From Escherichia virus TH06, in the sequence record MT446386.1: a stretch of DNA of 64,000 bases. One strand, written 5' to 3'. The stretch's first letter is position 1. Every line of letters begins with the position of its first letter. Shown here piece by piece: positions 3,393-41,525 of the stretch. The notes beneath the pieces were generated by a model. That model had not been told where the DNA came from, did no database searches, and saw only the letters and a list, made by a program, of their open reading frames with translations. The position numbers and the translations under genes were made by a program.

Positions 3393-3641
3393 ATGGCTAG
3401 TAAAAGTATTTGGATTCTGAGTCGTGTTGAAGAGACAGACAGAGGGGAGTACACAGAAGTGCTTTGCTCTTTCATTACATACCCCACAAAACAACAGCTT
3501 GAAGATGCTGGAGTAGAAATAAATCTTTCTCAATCTCTTTTTGATAAAAAGGTTTCCAAGTCAACAGCCCCATTCTTTGGTTATTACTACACACTTGATA
3601 GTTTGGAGCTACTGATGAATGATTCTTGTTTGGAGAATTAA
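3393..3641 (+). CDS. hypothetical protein (82 aa)
   Basis: Track ORF. Confidence 0.45.
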   Translation: MASKSIWILSRVEETDRGEYTEVLCSFITYPTKQQLEDAGVEINLSQSLFDKKVSKSTAPFFGYYYTLDSLELLMNDSCLEN

Positions 3642-3775
3642 TGTTGGAAGAAGATGACGATGTGTTCTGCACCAAGTGTGGGATGACAGTTGATGATGCA
3701 TATGACCCAAGTGTAGAAATTTGTCCATGTTGCGGAGTATGTGAATATTGCTGTTCCCACAACTCAGAGGATTAG
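3641..3775 (+). CDS. small Cys-rich protein (44 aa), zinc-ribbon-like
   Basis: ATG overlaps upstream stop (TAATG); CTKCG...CPCCGVCEYCC. Confidence 0.35.
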   Translation: MLEEDDDVFCTKCGMTVDDAYDPSVEICPCCGVCEYCCSHNSED

Positions 3776-3787
3776 CAGGAATTCCTT

Positions 3788-4685: not shown

Positions 4686-5419
4686 GTCGTCGTCAATCAC
4701 GGAAAGAATCACGGAAAGACCTTCGTCGGGAAGCACTTGTTACTCGTAAAGGTAAGAGAGAGTATGAAGAGGTGGTTTTAGCAAAGCCTGTAGTTCCTCA
4801 GAACCAGTTTCAGTCTGAGCTACTTAATGCTATCAAGACTAAACAAGTTGTGTTCACAGACGCTCCTGCGGGCTGTGGTAAGACCTTTGTAATCACTTCC
4901 ACGGTTATTGATGCACTGAAGAGTGGTAAGATTCAGAAGATCATCTTGAGTCGACCTTCAGTTGGCATGGGTAACTCTCTTGGGTTACTTCCGGGAGGGA
5001 TGCGTGAGAAGTTTGAACCATACCTTATGCCTATTATTGATGTTATTACTCAGCGATATGGTAAGGGGTTCTATGAATGCCAAATCGGAAATGGTAATAT
5101 TGAATTTGTACCTCTGGAATATCTCCGTGGTCGTTCCTTCAATGATGCCATTGTTATCGTGGATGAGTTCCAGAACACCACTAAAGAGGAAGCCTTCTCC
5201 ATCATGACTCGATTGGGAGAAACCTCTCAGCTGTTCTGCATGGGTGATACAAACCAGCATGATATGCGTGGTCGTGAGAGTGGCCTCACTTGGGCTACTA
5301 ACTTTATTGATGAACACGATCTGTATGAGTTTGCTGAGATTGTAGACGGTGAATCGGATGATATTGTTCGTTCTGGTTTCTGTAAGGCGATTGTTAAAGC
5401 AATGGAAAAGAAAGCTTAA
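4682..5419 (+). CDS. phoH: PhoH-like ATPase
   Basis: Walker A DAPAGCGKTF, LSRPSVGMGNSLGLLPG, IVDEFQN, MGDTNQHD match the PhoH family. Confidence 0.8.
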   Translation: MSRRQSRKESRKDLRREALVTRKGKREYEEVVLAKPVVPQNQFQSELLNAIKTKQVVFTDAPAGCGKTFVITSTVIDALKSGKIQKIILSRPSVGMGNSLGLLPGGMREKFEPYLMPIIDVITQRYGKGFYECQIGNGNIEFVPLEYLRGRSFNDAIVIVDEFQNTTKEEAFSIMTRLGETSQLFCMGDTNQHDMRGRESGLTWATNFIDEHDLYEFAEIVDGESDDIVRSGFCKAIVKAMEKKA

Positions 5420-5430
5420 ACAGTAACTTA

Positions 5431-5439
5431 TAATGTATA
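5431..5439 (+). promoter_or_regulatory. TAATGTATA element, candidate promoter for the phage-encoded sigma factor
   Basis: Exact 9-mer 37 nt upstream of ATG 5476; same 9-mer recurs upstream of three other genes. Confidence 0.4.
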
Positions 5440-5475
5440 CTCCTTAGTGTACACTGATATATTAAGGAGTTTTAA

Positions 5476-5793
5476 ATGGCAGATCATGTAGGAAAGAGAG
5501 ATTATGCACAAGAAAGACGTACCGCAATTGCCCGTGGTGAGACAGGCGTTGGGAGCAAGAGCGGAGATGCTCAGCGCCACCGTGCACGTCGCATCGTTGA
5601 AAAGCGCGATGGAAAAGCTGCTGTCAGAGGTAAAGACGTTGGACACAAACGAGCTGTCAAGTCTGGAGGCTCTAATGCGTCAAGCAACTTACGTGTTGAA
5701 TCAGTCAGCTCAAACCGTTCAAACGGCGGCAAAAGTGGTGATCGAGCTGGAAAAGCAGCTGGAGCACGCAAAGGAGCTTTAAGCTCATCGTAA
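5476..5793 (+). CDS. basic G/K/R/S-rich protein (105 aa); alternative overlapping frame 5504-5782 also open
   Basis: Strong RBS TAAGGAG 8 nt upstream; own upstream element and downstream terminator; locally GC-rich. Confidence 0.4.
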   Translation: MADHVGKRDYAQERRTAIARGETGVGSKSGDAQRHRARRIVEKRDGKAAVRGKDVGHKRAVKSGGSNASSNLRVESVSSNRSNGGKSGDRAGKAAGARKGALSSS

Positions 5794-5797
5794 TATG

Positions 5798-5826
5798 AGG
5801 CCACCCAAATGGGTGGCCTTTTCTTT
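5798..5826 (+). terminator. rho-independent terminator
   Basis: GGCCACCC-AAAT-GGGTGGCC stem-loop followed by TTTTCTTTT. Confidence 0.65.
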
Positions 5827-5861
5827 TATATAAACCAAATTAAACTTCTTAGGTAATAAAT

Positions 5862-6116
5862 ATGTCTATTGTAAAAATCGTAAATATCATTGATGTAACT
5901 CGTACCGGTAAAACTATTAGTTGGAAATTCACCAATAAGCATAGAGGTTCAGAGAACATCATTCGTTCTATGATTCAACAAAACCCAAATACAGCTCGCA
6001 CTAACGTACTCCTTCGCGGAGCTGATGGAAAATTTATCTCTTATAAGAATAAGAACGTAGAAAAATCTTTCCGTGTTGCAGTAGAAAATCTCATCCCATT
6101 CCCTAAAGGAGTTTAA
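5862..6116 (+). CDS. small protein, paralog family B (84 aa)
   Basis: Shares ...LLRGADGKFISYKNKN...PFPKG with the next ORF. Confidence 0.5.
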   Translation: MSIVKIVNIIDVTRTGKTISWKFTNKHRGSENIIRSMIQQNPNTARTNVLLRGADGKFISYKNKNVEKSFRVAVENLIPFPKGV

Positions 6117-6117
6117 T

Positions 6118-6402
6118 ATGAATAAGTTAGCTATGGTTCAGATTCGGGACACATACCCTAACCGCCCGGAGCAGAAACCGCGTACTTGGTCTTATCTGTT
6201 GGCTGAAAGTAAGACTATTGACAAATACGCTGTAGGAATTGATACTATCCCAACCAGTATCACTTTGCTTCCTCACAAAACAGCCAGAACCCATGTGATG
6301 TTACGTGACAGCAAAGGTAAGTTTATCTCTTACCGTGATTCACGAATCAGTAATGAGATTAAAGCTGCTGTAGGATTTTTAATGACATTCCCAAAAGGTT
6401 GA
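6118..6402 (+). CDS. small protein, paralog family B (94 aa)
   Basis: ...MLRDSKGKFISYRDSR...TFPKG. Confidence 0.5.
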   Translation: MNKLAMVQIRDTYPNRPEQKPRTWSYLLAESKTIDKYAVGIDTIPTSITLLPHKTARTHVMLRDSKGKFISYRDSRISNEIKAAVGFLMTFPKG

Positions 6403-11976: not shown

Positions 11977-12145
11977 TTTATCTCGCAGGTGGCTCCTGCC
12001 CTTCGGTACTTGCAAGGGATTCTGTGAATTGCCCAATATACAAGCCTGCAATAACTTTATCAGCTATACAATATATACATTACTAGTGTGATATATCTAC
12101 TACCAAAGATACTTATATTATATAGTACTCTTATCGGTATAAGCG

Positions 12146-12154
12146 TAATGTATA
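12146..12154 (+). promoter_or_regulatory. TAATGTATA element, candidate phage-sigma promoter
   Basis: Exact 9-mer about 60 nt upstream of ATG 12214. Confidence 0.4.
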
Positions 12155-13513: not shown

Positions 13514-15005
<1,492 letters not shown>

Positions 15006-16717: not shown

Positions 16718-16897
16718 ATGGGTAAATTTGATTATCGTTCATATGATGAAAACTACTCCAACCGTGAATCTCGTAAAGACCAAAAGATTAAACATCAACT
16801 GTTTGATCAGAGAACTGGTCGTATTCCTCGTGAGGGTAAGGTGAGCCATCGTGTAAACAAACGAGTTTGGGAAGAAGCTGATTATGGCGAAGTCTGA
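16718..16897 (+). CDS. small hypothetical protein (59 aa)
   Basis: ATG 16718 after AAGGA; fills gap before next gene. Confidence 0.35.
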   Translation: MGKFDYRSYDENYSNRESRKDQKIKHQLFDQRTGRIPREGKVSHRVNKRVWEEADYGEV

Positions 16898-17285
16898 GAA
16901 GACTCGCTGTAGTGGAATGTGGACTGAAGCTCGTTACAACTCTTTCATCAAGTCAGGGATTCGTTCTCTGACTAGAAAGTGGAAGCCCATGTTCGATGCA
17001 CTAGCAGACGCCAAGACAGAGCAGAAGATTAATCCAAAGACAGGTAGACTGGCAATGCACTTTAAGTGTGCCATGTGTGGTTCTGACCACCCTGTAAAGG
17101 ATATGGCTATTGACCACATAGAACCTATAGTTCCTCTTGACCACGAAGCAACTTGGGATGAGATCATCTCTCGTGCTCTGTGTGAGAAAGAAGGTTTTCA
17201 GGTTCTGTGTAAAGACCCTTGTCATAAGATTAAAACAAAAGAAGAGAATGATGCAAGAAAACAATTCAAAAAAGGAAATGAGTGA
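16884..17285 (+). CDS. HNH nuclease
   Basis: CAMCG...DMAIDHIEPI...CKDPCHKIK fits the HNH zinc-finger nuclease motif. Confidence 0.6.
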   Translation: MAKSEKTRCSGMWTEARYNSFIKSGIRSLTRKWKPMFDALADAKTEQKINPKTGRLAMHFKCAMCGSDHPVKDMAIDHIEPIVPLDHEATWDEIISRALCEKEGFQVLCKDPCHKIKTKEENDARKQFKKGNE

Positions 17286-39942: not shown

Positions 39943-40455
39943 TTAAGCAGGTGTTACACCAGTAAAAGTGCATGTTGCATTGATGGATGGGTCAGCTGTC
40001 AAACTTGCTTGAACAGTAACTTCGCCACTTGCAGCAGCATCTAAGGTTAACGCACCAGCGGCGCTTACTGTACCAGCTTCTGTAGGGGTTACAACAAACG
40101 TGTAATCCGCAGCAGTAGAATTAGTTACAGTAAACATGGTAGTGAAGTTAGTGGAAGAACCACCAGTTTTACCCGTAATTGGACCCTTAGCTACAATAGT
40201 AGGAGCAGGAGCAACAATTTCAGAAATGGTTGCTGTACCAGAAACACCTTCTAAAGTTGCAGTAATGGATACATCAGTGGATTGAGACGCACTCGGAGCA
40301 GTATACAAACCAGACTGAGTGATAGAACCACCTCCTGTCACTGACCAAGTAAAGCCAGTTGTTTCGGTAGAACCATCACTTTTCTCCGCGCTTGCAGTGA
40401 ACTGCCGAGTAGCCCCTGTCTCTAGACTTGCTAAAGACGCAGGGCTAACAGTCAC
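39943..40455 (-). CDS. Ig-like domain protein, possible capsid decoration
   Basis: T/S/G-rich beta-rich sequence directly downstream of major capsid gene; GTG start. Confidence 0.45.
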   Translation of the reverse strand: MTVSPASLASLETGATRQFTASAEKSDGSTETTGFTWSVTGGGSITQSGLYTAPSASQSTDVSITATLEGVSGTATISEIVAPAPTIVAKGPITGKTGGSSTNFTTMFTVTNSTAADYTFVVTPTEAGTVSAAGALTLDAAASGEVTVQASLTADPSINATCTFTGVTPA

Positions 40456-40466
40456 ACTGTCTACTG

Positions 40467-41525
40467 TTACGCCGCCACCTTTCCCGCGGCAGTGAACAGA
40501 ACGCCGGAAGCGTACGGGTTGCGGTGACGCAGACCAACTTCCATTTCAATCATCCACTTCTCGTAAGAACCGTCTTTAGCCAGTTCAGTGCGTTTCGGAG
40601 CACGCAGAACCATCTGAGTCCAGTCAGCGCTACGGAAGAAGTAAACTGCATCGGTAGGCATCCAACGGTTAACGATGATTTTGTAGCTCTGGCCCAGCGG
40701 GTCAGTGATGCTGTTAACTTCGTAGATGAACTGCTTGGTGTTCTCAAAGATACGCTTACGTGAACCCTGAGTATTTTCTTGCAGACCAGCGAAGATCTTA
40801 GCATGAGCCGGGTTAATCATGATGATATCTGCTTCAGAACCAGCGGTATACAGTTGCAGAGTCATATCAAAGATATCAGCTTCGTCAAAACCAATGTTAG
40901 TGGTCGGGTTAGAAGCATTCTGTGCAACTTTAACAGTTACTGCACCAGTATCCGGGTCAGCAGGACCATTCTTGGTCTTGTCAACAACGCCACCAGCAAG
41001 ACCACCGTGAGCACACAGGAACTGGAATGCACCAGTCTTACGAGCTGCATGAGTGTCGTTCAGACCAACAGTTGCAGGATCAGTTGCAGAGTTAGTCAGG
41101 TACTGATCAGCCAGAACGTCGGTACGAGCCTGACCGGACAGAAGGATTTTCTCGAGGTCACGCTTGATCTCTTTACCTTTCTTCTCCAGCTGATACATCA
41201 GTTCACGACCACGACCGTAGTTAGCGGTGGTGTTAGCAGTATCAGAAACACGAACAACCTTACGCAGAATCTGAGTAACGTTAGATTTGATAACAGTCGG
41301 TTTCATTTCGCCGTCTTCAGCACGAGAGCCTTCGACGTGTGCGTTATTACCGTCAACGCTTGCCAGTGCATCGGTCTGCCAGCTAAAGATAGTCTGGTTG
41401 ATAGACTCTTTACCGGTCATAGATACGAACGGGGTATCCTGAGGGGACAGAACAGAAATCCAGTTAGCAAAAGAAAGTTTTTTACCATTCTGGTCATACG
41501 ATACAAATAAAGTTGGATTAGCCAT
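40467..41525 (-). CDS. major capsid protein
   Basis: 352 aa ORF directly after acidic scaffold gene in the canonical terminase-portal-scaffold-capsid order. Confidence 0.65.
   Translation of the reverse strand: MANPTLFVSYDQNGKKLSFANWISVLSPQDTPFVSMTGKESINQTIFSWQTDALASVDGNNAHVEGSRAEDGEMKPTVIKSNVTQILRKVVRVSDTANTTANYGRGRELMYQLEKKGKEIKRDLEKILLSGQARTDVLADQYLTNSATDPATVGLNDTHAARKTGAFQFLCAHGGLAGGVVDKTKNGPADPDTGAVTVKVAQNASNPTTNIGFDEADIFDMTLQLYTAGSEADIIMINPAHAKIFAGLQENTQGSRKRIFENTKQFIYEVNSITDPLGQSYKIIVNRWMPTDAVYFFRSADWTQMVLRAPKRTELAKDGSYEKWMIEMEVGLRHRNPYASGVLFTAAGKVAA

What the first reader, a model, noticed from the sequence alone, without database searches (positions are those of the whole stretch)
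5431..5826. Self-contained expression unit with locally GC-rich composition and two long overlapping reading frames
A TAATGTATA element, a strong RBS, an ORF and a strong terminator form a compact cassette. Within it, frame 1 (5476-5793, G/K/R-rich) and frame 2 (5504-5782, a helical-looking K/E/L/A-rich protein with its own GAGAG upstream) are both open for about 280 nt, and the minus strand is also open (5571-5804). Three open frames implies stop-poor, GC-rich composition atypical for this genome, possibly a recently acquired gene or a genuine dual-coding region.
Basis: seen in the sequence. Interest (0 to 1): 0.45.

Follow-up and report, generated by a model that had tools for sequence, protein, structure and literature searches.

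The report
Known phage gene with shadow frames
This is the already described gene 58 unit of a phiEco32-like E. coli phage (own phage-sigma promoter, strong ribosome site, small basic HNH-nuclease-like protein, terminator), and the two extra open frames are composition by-products, not a second gene.

Summary
The window is a Kuravirus (phiEco32/SU10-like) genome. TAATGTATA (5431-5439) is the consensus of promoters read by the phage sigma factor gp36. Gene 58 is one of six phiEco32 genes with an experimentally mapped promoter of this kind, and the SU10 paper lists the identical sequence. Frame 1 (5476-5793) is identical to phiEco32 gp58. It belongs to a conserved family (phrog_4590, more than 200 homologs) of about 100-aa, cysteine-less, very basic HNH-like proteins. 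These sit upstream of the DNA polymerase gene in four phage groups.

Frame 2 and the minus-strand ORF are shadow ORFs:
- They match no protein family.
- Among Kuraviruses, variation falls on frame-1 third positions (20/8/46 variable sites).
- dN/dS is 0.05-0.2 in frame 1 and 1-2.6 in frame 2.
- The frame-2 products of Kuravirus and LUZ24 share no similarity, while the frame-1 products are 61% identical.

The local GC excess (0.51 vs 0.42) lies in codon positions 1-2 (Gly/Ala/Arg). GC3 is 0.33, so the gene is not foreign, and it is present in all 98 related genomes. Hydrophobic codons, the only source of +1 stops, are half as frequent as in neighbouring genes.

Verdict: ordinary and already known. 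Two small residues remain: a Kuravirus-specific stretch of low synonymous divergence, and an Asp-to-Gly change in the HNH motif.

The parts
5431..5439 (+). gp36 (phage sigma factor) promoter element tAATGTAtA; homolog of the phiEco32 gene 58 promoter
   Evidence: Exact consensus, 5 copies in the window against 0.73 expected. The identical 41-nt sequence is listed as the SU10 middle promoter between CDS56 and CDS57. Gene 58 is one of six phiEco32 genes with experimentally identified gp36 promoters. The element is invariant in 18 Kuravirus-group sequences, while the sequence immediately upstream differs between clades.
5446..5446 (+). Predicted transcription start (inferred, not measured here)
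   Evidence: AATGTA is centred at -11.5 (PMC12276001) and the start lies 6-8 bp downstream of the element (PMC8948821). Arithmetic on 5432-5437 gives +1 at about 5446.
5439..5470 (+). Inverted repeat ACTCCTTAGTGTA / TATATTAAGGAGT. In transcripts read through from upstream it would form a 13-bp hairpin that covers the ribosome binding site. Transcripts starting at about 5446 lack the 5' arm.
   Evidence: Fold of 5420-5500: hairpin centroid -14.7 kcal/mol, z -1.6. Fold of 5446-5500: -3 kcal/mol with the SD unpaired. The sequence is almost invariant, so there is no covariation test. One A-to-G variant keeps a U-G pair. The functional role is inference only.
5464..5469 (+). Shine-Dalgarno AAGGAG, 6 nt before the start codon
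   Evidence: -8.7 kcal/mol against the anti-SD; top 2% of ATGs.
5476..5793 (+). Gene 58 homolog: 105-aa protein, pI 11.5, rich in Gly/Ala/Arg/Ser/Lys; cysteine-less HNH-like protein (frame 1). This is the real gene.
   Evidence: Exact match to phiEco32 phi32_58, YP_001671803.1. phrog_4590 at E 7.7e-41. 200 homologs at E <= 1e-3. 319 50%-identity clusters at E <= 1e-3. dN/dS 0.05-0.20.
5632..5733 (+). HNH-like beta-beta-alpha-metal core (residues 53-86). His57, Asn71 and Asn80 are invariant. The usual Asp before the His is Gly56 in Kuraviruses.
5797..5830 (+). Intrinsic terminator: 10-bp GC-rich stem, 4-nt loop, T run
   Evidence: -20.3 kcal/mol, z -4.9, 0 of 200 shuffles. Conserved in Kuraviruses, including a G-C to G-U change in the stem. 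Probably partial, because the downstream replication genes have no TAATGTATA of their own before 12146.
5504..5782 (+).
   Evidence: No Pfam, PHROG or NCBIfam match. dN/dS 1-2.6. Most variable sites fall on its codon position 2. Weak ribosome site. The exact product was called as a protein only 3 times, against a 122-member cluster for frame 1.
5571..5804 (-). Shadow ORF on the minus strand; not a gene
   Evidence: No family match. Not in the protein collection. P = 0.11 under synonymous randomisation. GTG start inside the terminator stem with a weak ribosome site.
5554..5649 (+). Codons 27-58 of gene 58: a stretch with unusually low synonymous divergence among Kuraviruses (unexplained)
   Evidence: pS is 0.00-0.27 here, against 0.49-0.72 in codons 1-26 (Fisher P 0.0015 for ECBP2 and 0.076 for KBNP1711). 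No variable site at all in codons 27-42 across 17 sequences. No Rfam hit and no unusual fold. The same codons are fully randomised across the wider family.

Best explanation
The region is the gene 58 transcription unit of a phiEco32-like (Kuravirus) phage.

How it most likely works:
1. In the middle phase of infection, E. coli RNA polymerase carrying the phage sigma factor gp36 recognises the single element TAATGTATA. A gp36 homolog is encoded at 13973-14620 in this window. Transcription starts about 7 nt downstream, near 5446 (recognition known from phiEco32; start site inferred here).
2. A strong Shine-Dalgarno sequence drives translation of one product, the 105-aa frame-1 protein (shown by homology and selection pattern).
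3. A strong hairpin terminator ends most transcripts. Some read-through must feed the downstream replication genes (inferred).

The protein is a very basic, cysteine-less member of the HNH (beta-beta-alpha-metal) nuclease superfamily. It is a core component of the replication gene module of several podophage groups. It most likely binds DNA, and may nick or cut it, during replication or recombination (inferred). In Kuraviruses one predicted metal ligand, the Asp of the Asp-His pair, is Gly, so catalysis may be weakened.

The long +1 and antisense open frames are by-products of the protein's composition. It is 67% Gly/Ala/Arg/Ser/Lys and has half the usual share of Val/Leu/Ile/Met codons, which are the only codons that can create +1 stops. 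The same composition raises GC at codon positions 1 and 2.
For: Identity of the unit:
- Megablast finds 98 Kuravirus-group records.
- The protein is an exact match to phi32_58.
- The promoter sequence is identical to the SU10 middle promoter in that paper's Table S2.
- Gene 58 is listed among the six experimentally identified gp36 promoters.
- The motif is enriched, 5 copies against 0.73 expected.
- A sigma factor gene is present in the window.

Single coding frame:
- phrog_4590 at E 8e-41 for frame 1, and nothing for frame 2 or the minus ORF.
- Variable sites by frame-1 codon position are 20/8/46.
- dN/dS is 0.05-0.2 in frame 1 and 1-2.6 in frame 2.
- Frame-1 products of the window and LUZ24 are 61% identical (E 1e-29), while the +1 products have no alignment at E <= 100.
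- Invariant residues use fully randomised codons across the family.

Composition:
- GC1/2/3 are 0.62/0.58/0.33, against 0.53/0.39/0.36 in long ORFs.
- V+L+I+M make up 12.0% of codons, against 23.5% in neighbouring genes.
- Across 44 family genes, within-gene synonymous shuffling predicts 101.8 +1 stops and 101 are observed.
- Openness retained across 17 Kuraviruses has P 0.34-0.72 under synonymous-only randomisation.

HNH assignment. A remote family member, P0230, passes the Pfam HNH threshold.

Core gene with conserved position. The SU10 paper states that CDS56 is present in all five C3-morphotype phages.
Against: - With neighbour-gene codon usage as the null, +1 stops across 32 non-redundant family members are 23% fewer than expected (81 against 105.4, z -3.2). 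Neighbour genes themselves sit at a ratio of 1.00. I attribute the deficit to slightly lower use of GTA and ATA codons (P 0.08), but this is not proven.
- Synonymous divergence of gene 58 between Kuravirus clades (dS 0.47-0.54) is about half that of phoH and the polymerase gene (0.94-1.37). The deficit is concentrated in codons 27-58. An overlapping element could cause this.
- No biochemical function of gp58 is known.
- The transcription start, terminator efficiency and expression level were not measured here.
Confidence: 0.87

Rival explanations
1. True dual coding in Kuraviruses. The 92-aa frame-2 ORF (5504-5782) is a young overprinted gene, translated from its own ATG and encoding a helical protein.
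For: - The ORF and its ATG are kept in all 17 distinct Kuravirus-group sequences examined.
- The a priori chance of such an open +1 frame is 0.08.
- Synonymous divergence is reduced in the central part of the gene.
- There is a family-wide 23% deficit of +1 stops against neighbour codon usage.
- Gene callers have annotated this frame in three records, and LUZ24 gp26 is the equivalent frame.
Against: - dN/dS in frame 2 is 1-2.6 in ten pairwise comparisons, and its codon position 2 is the most variable.
- The ATG exists only because frame 1 encodes Asp-Tyr-Ala. Most relatives have Lys at that position, which removes it.
- The ribosome site is weak.
- No homologs were found, and there is no similarity to the LUZ24 +1 product.
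- Retention of openness is not significant once only synonymous changes are randomised (P 0.34-0.72).
- The window holds 12 comparable shadow ORFs, so a P of 0.08 is expected by chance somewhere.
- The +1 frame is broken in 13 of 32 family members.
Confidence: 0.04
2. A recently acquired foreign gene (a moron-like cassette from a GC-richer donor), which would explain the GC excess and the private promoter and terminator.
For: - Local GC is in the top 0.9% of the window.
- The promoter-gene-terminator layout resembles a moron.
- The flanks are hypervariable: different ORFs are inserted just upstream of the promoter, and between the stop codon and the terminator.
Against: - GC3 is 0.33, at or below the genome's 0.36. 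The excess is confined to positions fixed by the amino acids.
- The promoter is the phage's own gp36 type.
- The gene is in 98 records, the same count as hold the polymerase gene.
- It is conserved in distant C3-morphotype phages.
- It keeps its position upstream of the DNA polymerase gene in Grimontviridae, Lahexavirus and Bruynoghevirus.
Confidence: 0.02
3. Frame 1 encodes a selfish free-standing HNH homing endonuclease rather than a functional part of the replication module.
For: - HNH-like fold.
- In LUZ24-like phages the gene lies between the two halves of a split DNA polymerase, a typical signature of a homing endonuclease.
- Some homologs are annotated as HNH or McrA.
Against: - Homing endonuclease genes are patchy in distribution. 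This gene is found in as many Kuravirus-group records (98) as the polymerase gene.
- It is under purifying selection (dN/dS 0.05-0.2).
- It is 55-61% identical across phage families.
- It has a dedicated middle-phase promoter.
- A different, canonical 164-aa HNH homing endonuclease is the sporadic element at this locus.
- Kuravirus copies lack the Asp of the Asp-His pair.
Confidence: 0.07

Closest known systems
phiEco32 gene 58 with its gp36-dependent promoter; SU10 CDS56 and the middle promoter between CDS56 and CDS57
   Same: The protein sequence is identical to phi32_58. The 41 nt of promoter and leader are identical to the sequence in SU10 Table S2. The neighbours are the same: phoH upstream, two small paralogous ORFs and the exonuclease-less DNA polymerase downstream.
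   Different: In this window phoH directly abuts the promoter, and the terminator directly follows the stop codon. phiEco32 has an extra ORF (phi32_59) upstream. SU10 has an extra ORF (gp55) between the gene and the terminator. Other relatives carry a homing endonuclease there.
Small stand-alone phage HNH endonucleases (Pfam PF01844/PF13392), for example the GVE2 HNH and Geobacter Gme HNH nicking enzymes
   Different: There are no zinc-binding cysteines. The family has a distinctive, highly conserved N-terminal helix-loop (RGETGxGSKSGDAxRHRARR) and a Gly/Lys-rich basic tail. It sits in the replication module, not next to the terminase genes. Kuravirus copies have Gly instead of the Asp that precedes the catalytic His. 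The window protein does not reach any Pfam HNH threshold.
Shadow ORFs (long spurious alternative-frame ORFs inside real genes), as opposed to overprinted genes such as those of phiX174
   Same: Long alternative-frame ORFs produced by a stop-poor composition. They are occasionally picked up by gene callers.
   Different: Real overprinted genes show constraint in both frames. Here frame 2 has dN/dS of at least 1 and no conservation outside close relatives.

Membership tests
phiEco32-type gp36-dependent middle/late promoter | Single consensus element tAATGTAtA (AATGTA centred at -11.5), with no -35 element required | tested here: met
   Exact TAATGTATA at 5431-5439. Consensus taken from PMC8948821 and PMC12276001.
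phiEco32-type gp36-dependent middle/late promoter | Located upstream of one of the genes known to carry such a promoter (6, 13, 26, 40, 58, 68) | tested here: met
   The downstream ORF is identical to phi32_58. The sequence is identical to the SU10 promoter between CDS56 and CDS57.
phiEco32-type gp36-dependent middle/late promoter | The cognate phage sigma factor is encoded by the same genome | tested here: met
   ORF 13973-14620 matches phrog_1740, RNA polymerase sigma factor, at E 6e-46.
phiEco32-type gp36-dependent middle/late promoter | Transcripts start 6-8 nt downstream, with gp36 and gp79 dependence in vitro or in vivo | not testable with these tools
   Requires primer extension or in vitro transcription. 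This was done for phiEco32 according to PMC8948821, not for this genome.
HNH endonuclease superfamily (beta-beta-alpha-metal) | Significant match to an HNH profile (Pfam PF01844 or relatives) | tested here: inconclusive
   The window protein has no HNH hit at E <= 1. 23 of 30 family members hit PF01844 (best E 5e-4) and 11 hit HNH_3 (7.5e-5), with no member shown to reach Pfam's cut-off. The remote member P0230 passes the threshold (24.1 against 21.4 bits).
HNH endonuclease superfamily (beta-beta-alpha-metal) | Two beta strands followed by a helix, carrying the catalytic His, the structural Asn and the metal-binding Asn or His | tested here: met
HNH endonuclease superfamily (beta-beta-alpha-metal) | Asp (or equivalent ligand) immediately before the catalytic His, as in Cas9 D839-H840 and T4 endonuclease VII D40-H41 (comparison from my own knowledge) | tested here: not met
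   Asp56 is present in at least 90% of the family but is Gly in all 18 Kuravirus-group copies, including the window.
HNH endonuclease superfamily (beta-beta-alpha-metal) | Metal-dependent nuclease or nickase activity | not testable with these tools
   No biochemical data on any family member were found in the literature searched.
Overlapping (dual-coding) genes | Purifying selection on the second frame (dN/dS below 1; reduced synonymous rate of frame 1 over the whole overlap) | tested here: not met
   Frame-2 dN/dS is 0.97-2.64. Frame-1 third positions are the most variable. The reduced dS is confined to codons 27-58.
Overlapping (dual-coding) genes | The second ORF, and its product, are conserved in distant relatives | tested here: not met
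   The +1 frame is interrupted in 13 of 32 non-redundant homologs. There is no similarity between the +1 products of the window and LUZ24.
Overlapping (dual-coding) genes | Evidence of translation (ribosome profiling or peptides) | not testable with these tools

The most novel reading that the evidence does not exclude
The gp58 family may be a domesticated, cysteine-less mini-HNH that acts on the phage's own DNA as part of the replication module. One possibility is that it is the still unidentified site-specific nickase behind the localized single-strand interruptions of LUZ24-like phage tf. The family is present in LUZ24-like genomes, between the two polymerase halves. In that reading, the Kuravirus copies (Asp to Gly) would have shifted to a non-catalytic or altered role. 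The Kuravirus-specific 100-nt stretch without synonymous change inside the gene would mark an additional nucleic-acid-level signal.
Probability: 0.08. Interest if true: 0.5.

Novelty: already known. Interest (0 to 1): 0.12.

Why it matters
As found, it matters little. It re-identifies a published promoter-gene unit of phiEco32-like phages and shows that the dual-coding signal is a composition artefact.

Two practical points follow:
1. This gene family is a recurrent annotation trap. LUZ24 gp26 and a few Kuravirus records annotate the +1 shadow ORF instead of the conserved HNH-like protein.
2. gp58 is one of the few proteins shared by phiEco32-like, 7-11-like, Lahexavirus and LUZ24-like phages. 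It has its own middle promoter and no known function, so it is a reasonable target for biochemical study.

Tried and rejected
- Rfam scan of 5200-6100 at E <= 1 gave only sub-threshold hits on the terminator hairpin.
- RNA folding of the low-dS stretch gave z -0.45, so there is no special structure.
- A profile search of solved structures by sequence gave no hit at E <= 10.
- NCBIfam gave nothing for either frame.
- Pfam on four large proteins (450-958 aa) that carry the family as a C-terminal domain gave nothing.
- Foldseek against PDB returned mostly HNH proteins, but none significant (E > 1).
- I considered programmed frameshifting from frame 1 into frame 2 and rejected it. Frame 2 ends 11 nt before the frame-1 stop, so no extended product would result.
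- I considered the SD-sequestering hairpin as a regulator and kept it only as an inference (z -1.6, no covariation possible).
- A randomisation of all changed codons gave P 0.03-0.04 for retained +1 openness. I rejected that null as unrealistic, because it redraws nonsynonymous replacements that in reality arise by single-base steps. The synonymous-only version gives P 0.34-0.72.
- The two original phiEco32 papers (PMC2587145, PMC3275717) are not held in the library, so the experimental mapping is cited second-hand from PMC8948821 and PMC4281155.
- I ran no further search on the frame-2 product, because the selection tests and exact look-up already answered the question.

Full report
**What the window is.** Megablast of 5300-6000 finds 98 phage records, nearly all Escherichia or Shigella phages of the phiEco32/SU10 group (Kuravirus and sister genera), at 80-99% identity. 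The annotated neighbourhood in SU10 and phiEco32 runs thymidylate synthase, small ORFs, PhoH-like protein, a 'hypothetical protein' of 104-105 aa, two small ORFs, then a DNA polymerase lacking both exonuclease domains. The ORF in the finding is phiEco32 phi32_58, equivalent to SU10 gp56. An exact-sequence look-up returns YP_001671803.1 in a 90%-identity cluster of 122 members.

**Checking the observation.** All coordinates hold.
- TAATGTATA lies at 5431-5439.
- AAGGAG lies at 5464-5469, 6 nt before the ATG at 5476.
- The ORFs are 5476-5793 (105 aa), 5504-5782 (92 aa) and 5571-5804 on the minus strand (77 aa).
- A 10-bp GC-rich hairpin with a T run lies at 5797-5830. The hairpin folds at -20.3 kcal/mol, z -4.9.
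- The frame-1 ribosome site pairs with the anti-SD at -8.7 kcal/mol (top 2% of all ATGs). The GAGAG before the frame-2 ATG gives -4.2 (21st percentile).
- Gene GC is 0.513 against 0.419 for the window, in the top 0.9% of 318-nt windows.

The description is accurate.

**The TAATGTATA element.** It occurs 5 times exactly in the window, against 0.73 expected (0 of 100 shuffles reach 5). [quoted passage not shown]
- Transcription starts 6-8 bp downstream, and AATGTA is centred at -11.5 (PMC8948821; PMC12276001).
- PMC8948821 lists genes 6, 13, 26, 40, 58 and 68 as the six phiEco32 genes downstream of gp36-dependent promoters, and says the six promoters were identified experimentally.
- Table S2 of the SU10 paper gives 'acttataatgtatactccttagtgtacactgatatattaag between CDS56 and CDS57', which is identical to window 5424-5464. 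The other three exact + or - copies that I printed match its other promoters.
- The window also encodes the sigma factor (13973-14620, phrog_1740, E 6e-46).

The predicted start is therefore near A5446 (inference). Across 18 Kuravirus-group sequences, conservation begins exactly at the promoter element, while the sequence just upstream differs between clades.

**Which frame is the gene.**
- Frame 1 matches phrog_4590 at E 7.7e-41. Frame 2 and the minus ORF match nothing in Pfam, PHROGs or NCBIfam.
- Frame 1 has 200 homologs at E <= 1e-3 in the large protein collection, at 55-97% identity, from Escherichia, Vibrio, Plesiomonas, Pseudomonas and metagenomes. It has 319 50%-identity clusters in the exhaustive profile search.
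- In a codon alignment of 17 distinct Kuravirus-group sequences, the variable sites in the overlap fall 20/8/46 on frame-1 codon positions 1/2/3. The most variable class is therefore position 2 of frame 2.
- Pairwise Nei-Gojobori estimates give dN/dS of 0.05-0.20 for frame 1 and 0.97-2.64 for frame 2.
- Between the window and LUZ24, the frame-1 products are 61% identical (E 1e-29), while the +1 products give no alignment at E <= 100.
- Across 40 family members, the invariant residues use synonymous codons at near-maximal entropy, so only the frame-1 amino-acid sequence is conserved.
- The frame-2 ATG exists only because frame 1 reads Asp-Tyr-Ala (GAT TAT GCA). Most relatives have Lys there.

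**Why the other frames are open.** Stops in the +1 frame can arise only from NTA or NTG codons (Val, Leu, Ile, Met) followed by a purine-initial codon, which for NTG must start with A.
- The protein is 67% Gly/Ala/Arg/Ser/Lys, with pI 11.5.
- In the family, V+L+I+M make up 12.0% of codons, against 23.5% in neighbouring genes.
- Given the protein and the phage's codon usage, a +1 frame open for at least 96 codons has P 0.08, and the antisense ORF has P 0.11.
- The window contains 12 shadow ORFs of at least 92 aa, so one such case is expected by chance.
- Across 44 family genes, +1 stops number 101, against 101.8 expected from shuffling synonymous codons within each gene.
- With neighbour-gene codon usage as the null there is a 23% deficit (81 against 105.4, z -3.2), while neighbour genes themselves sit at a ratio of 1.000. 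This goes with slightly lower use of GTA and ATA. It is not accompanied by any position-specific avoidance, and 13 of 32 non-redundant members have a broken +1 frame.
- Retention of the open frame among the 17 Kuravirus sequences is not significant when synonymous changes are randomised (P 0.34-0.72).

**Composition and origin.** The GC excess is in codon positions 1 and 2 (0.62 and 0.58, against 0.53 and 0.39 in long ORFs). GC3 is 0.33 against 0.36. That is the signature of Gly/Ala/Arg codons, not of a foreign donor.
- The cassette is found in 98 records, the same number that hold at least 80% of the polymerase gene.
- The SU10 paper notes that CDS56 is one of the few genes shared by all five C3-morphotype phages.
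- Homologs lie 0.7-2.3 kb upstream of the DNA polymerase gene in Grimontviridae (Cronobacter phage A24, Salmonella phage pSal-SNUABM-01) and Lahexavirus. In LUZ24 the homolog lies between 'DNA polymerase part I' and 'part II'.

**What the protein is.** The family consensus is KRDYxQERxTAIARGETGVGSKSGDAQRHRARR...VDHKKxxKxGGSNxxSNLRVRSxSSNxSDGGKxG, followed by a Gly/Lys-rich tail. Invariant residues include His57, Asn71 and Asn80, and there are no cysteines.
- An AlphaFold model (pLDDT 73.5) has helices, then strand 53-57, strand 72-76 and helix 77-86.
- The Foldseek hits are also HNH proteins, but none is significant.
- 23 of 30 members give weak Pfam HNH hits, though the window protein itself gives none. 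One remote member passes the Pfam threshold.

I therefore call it HNH-like and do not file it as a verified HNH nuclease. All Kuravirus-group copies have Gly where at least 90% of the family has the Asp preceding the catalytic His. In Cas9 and T4 endonuclease VII that Asp is a metal ligand (my own knowledge). Its role is inferred from context: a DNA-binding or nicking factor of the replication and recombination module. No experimental function was found.

**Is it a self-contained unit?** Partly. The next TAATGTATA on the + strand is at 12146. The genes from 5862 to about 12100, including the polymerase, must therefore be reached by read-through of the 5797-5820 terminator or from unrecognised promoters. 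The terminator most likely attenuates rather than insulates (inference).

An inverted repeat (5439-5470) would hide the ribosome site in transcripts arriving from upstream (-14.7 kcal/mol), but not in transcripts starting at 5446. That would tie gp58 translation to its own promoter. It is untested, and the sequence offers no covariation.

**Residual oddities.**
- Gene 58 has dS of 0.47-0.54 against ECBP2, KBNP1711 and EP335, while phoH and the polymerase gene have 0.94-1.37 in the same comparisons.
- The deficit is concentrated in codons 27-58: pS 0-0.27, against 0.49-0.72 in codons 1-26, with Fisher P 0.0015 and 0.076. Codons 27-42 have no variable site at all.
- There is no Rfam match or unusual fold there, and the wider family shows no such constraint.

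A recombination tract or a Kuravirus-specific nucleic-acid signal could each explain this. Frame-2 coding cannot be excluded for this stretch alone, but nothing supports it.

**Verdict.** The dual-coding and recent-acquisition readings are not supported. Novelty: already known. Interest: low.

Noticed in passing
L056 (LUZ24, AM910650) 3468-3783: The annotated LUZ24 gp26 (GTG start, 89 aa, 'contains transmembrane domain') is the +1 shadow ORF of the unannotated 103-aa HNH-like homolog at 3468-3779. The record seems to have picked the wrong frame. Phage phiEc_1 (BEH83364.1) likewise carries the window's frame-2 ORF as a protein.
   Followed up: yes
window 5790-5797, compared with L001 2991-3300, L054 754-1124 and L055 763-1257: The few bases between the gene 58 stop codon and its terminator are an insertion hot spot. 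SU10 has an extra 97-aa ORF there. Bas89, EcoN5, TH34 and others have a 164-aa canonical HNH homing endonuclease that overlaps the stop codon. Their last 8 or so codons of gene 58 are recoded (GALSQ*), which looks like a co-conversion tract.
   Followed up: partly
window 5554-5649: Codons 27-58 of gene 58 show almost no synonymous divergence among Kuravirus clades, whose neighbouring genes are near saturation. No RNA family or fold explains it.
   Followed up: partly
window 5439-5470: A 13-bp inverted repeat pairs the Shine-Dalgarno sequence with the sequence just after the promoter element. It would form only in read-through transcripts, not in transcripts from the gene's own promoter.
   Followed up: partly
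window 5641-5646 (Gly56-His57): All Kuravirus-group copies have Gly-His where the rest of the family has the Asp-His pair of the HNH motif, yet the gene stays under purifying selection.
   Followed up: partly
window 5862-6116 and 6118-6402: Two tandem paralogous small ORFs (both phrog_6814, E 7e-39 and 4e-34) follow the cassette. They diverge very fast between Kuraviruses (dN 0.2-0.6), and some records label them 'autotransporter adhesin', probably wrongly.
   Followed up: partly
window 12074-12082 (-) and 12146-12154 (+): Two exact TAATGTATA elements face away from each other, 64 bp apart, in an AT-rich intergenic region. The + one equals the SU10 promoter between CDS37 and CDS38. The - one is not in the SU10 promoter table.
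   Followed up: no
window 40467-41525 (-) and 40779-41510 (+): A 243-aa ORF lies antisense inside a 352-aa ORF, in another locally GC-rich region (GC >= 0.51 around 40221-40951). It is the largest shadow ORF in the window.
   Followed up: no
P0229, P0260, P0263, P0283 (metagenomic proteins of 450-958 aa): The whole gp58-like module (RDYKxEY...DHKKPLRxGGSN...NLRVRxxSxNRSxNG) also occurs as the C-terminal domain of large proteins with no Pfam match. P0283 starts with a nucleotidyltransferase-like HxGH-type motif.
   Followed up: partly
window 16884-17285: A separate, canonical cysteine-containing HNH endonuclease gene (133 aa, phrog_3106, E 6e-40) lies in the same middle-gene cluster. The phage therefore carries both a classical HNH and the cysteine-less gp58 type.
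   Followed up: no
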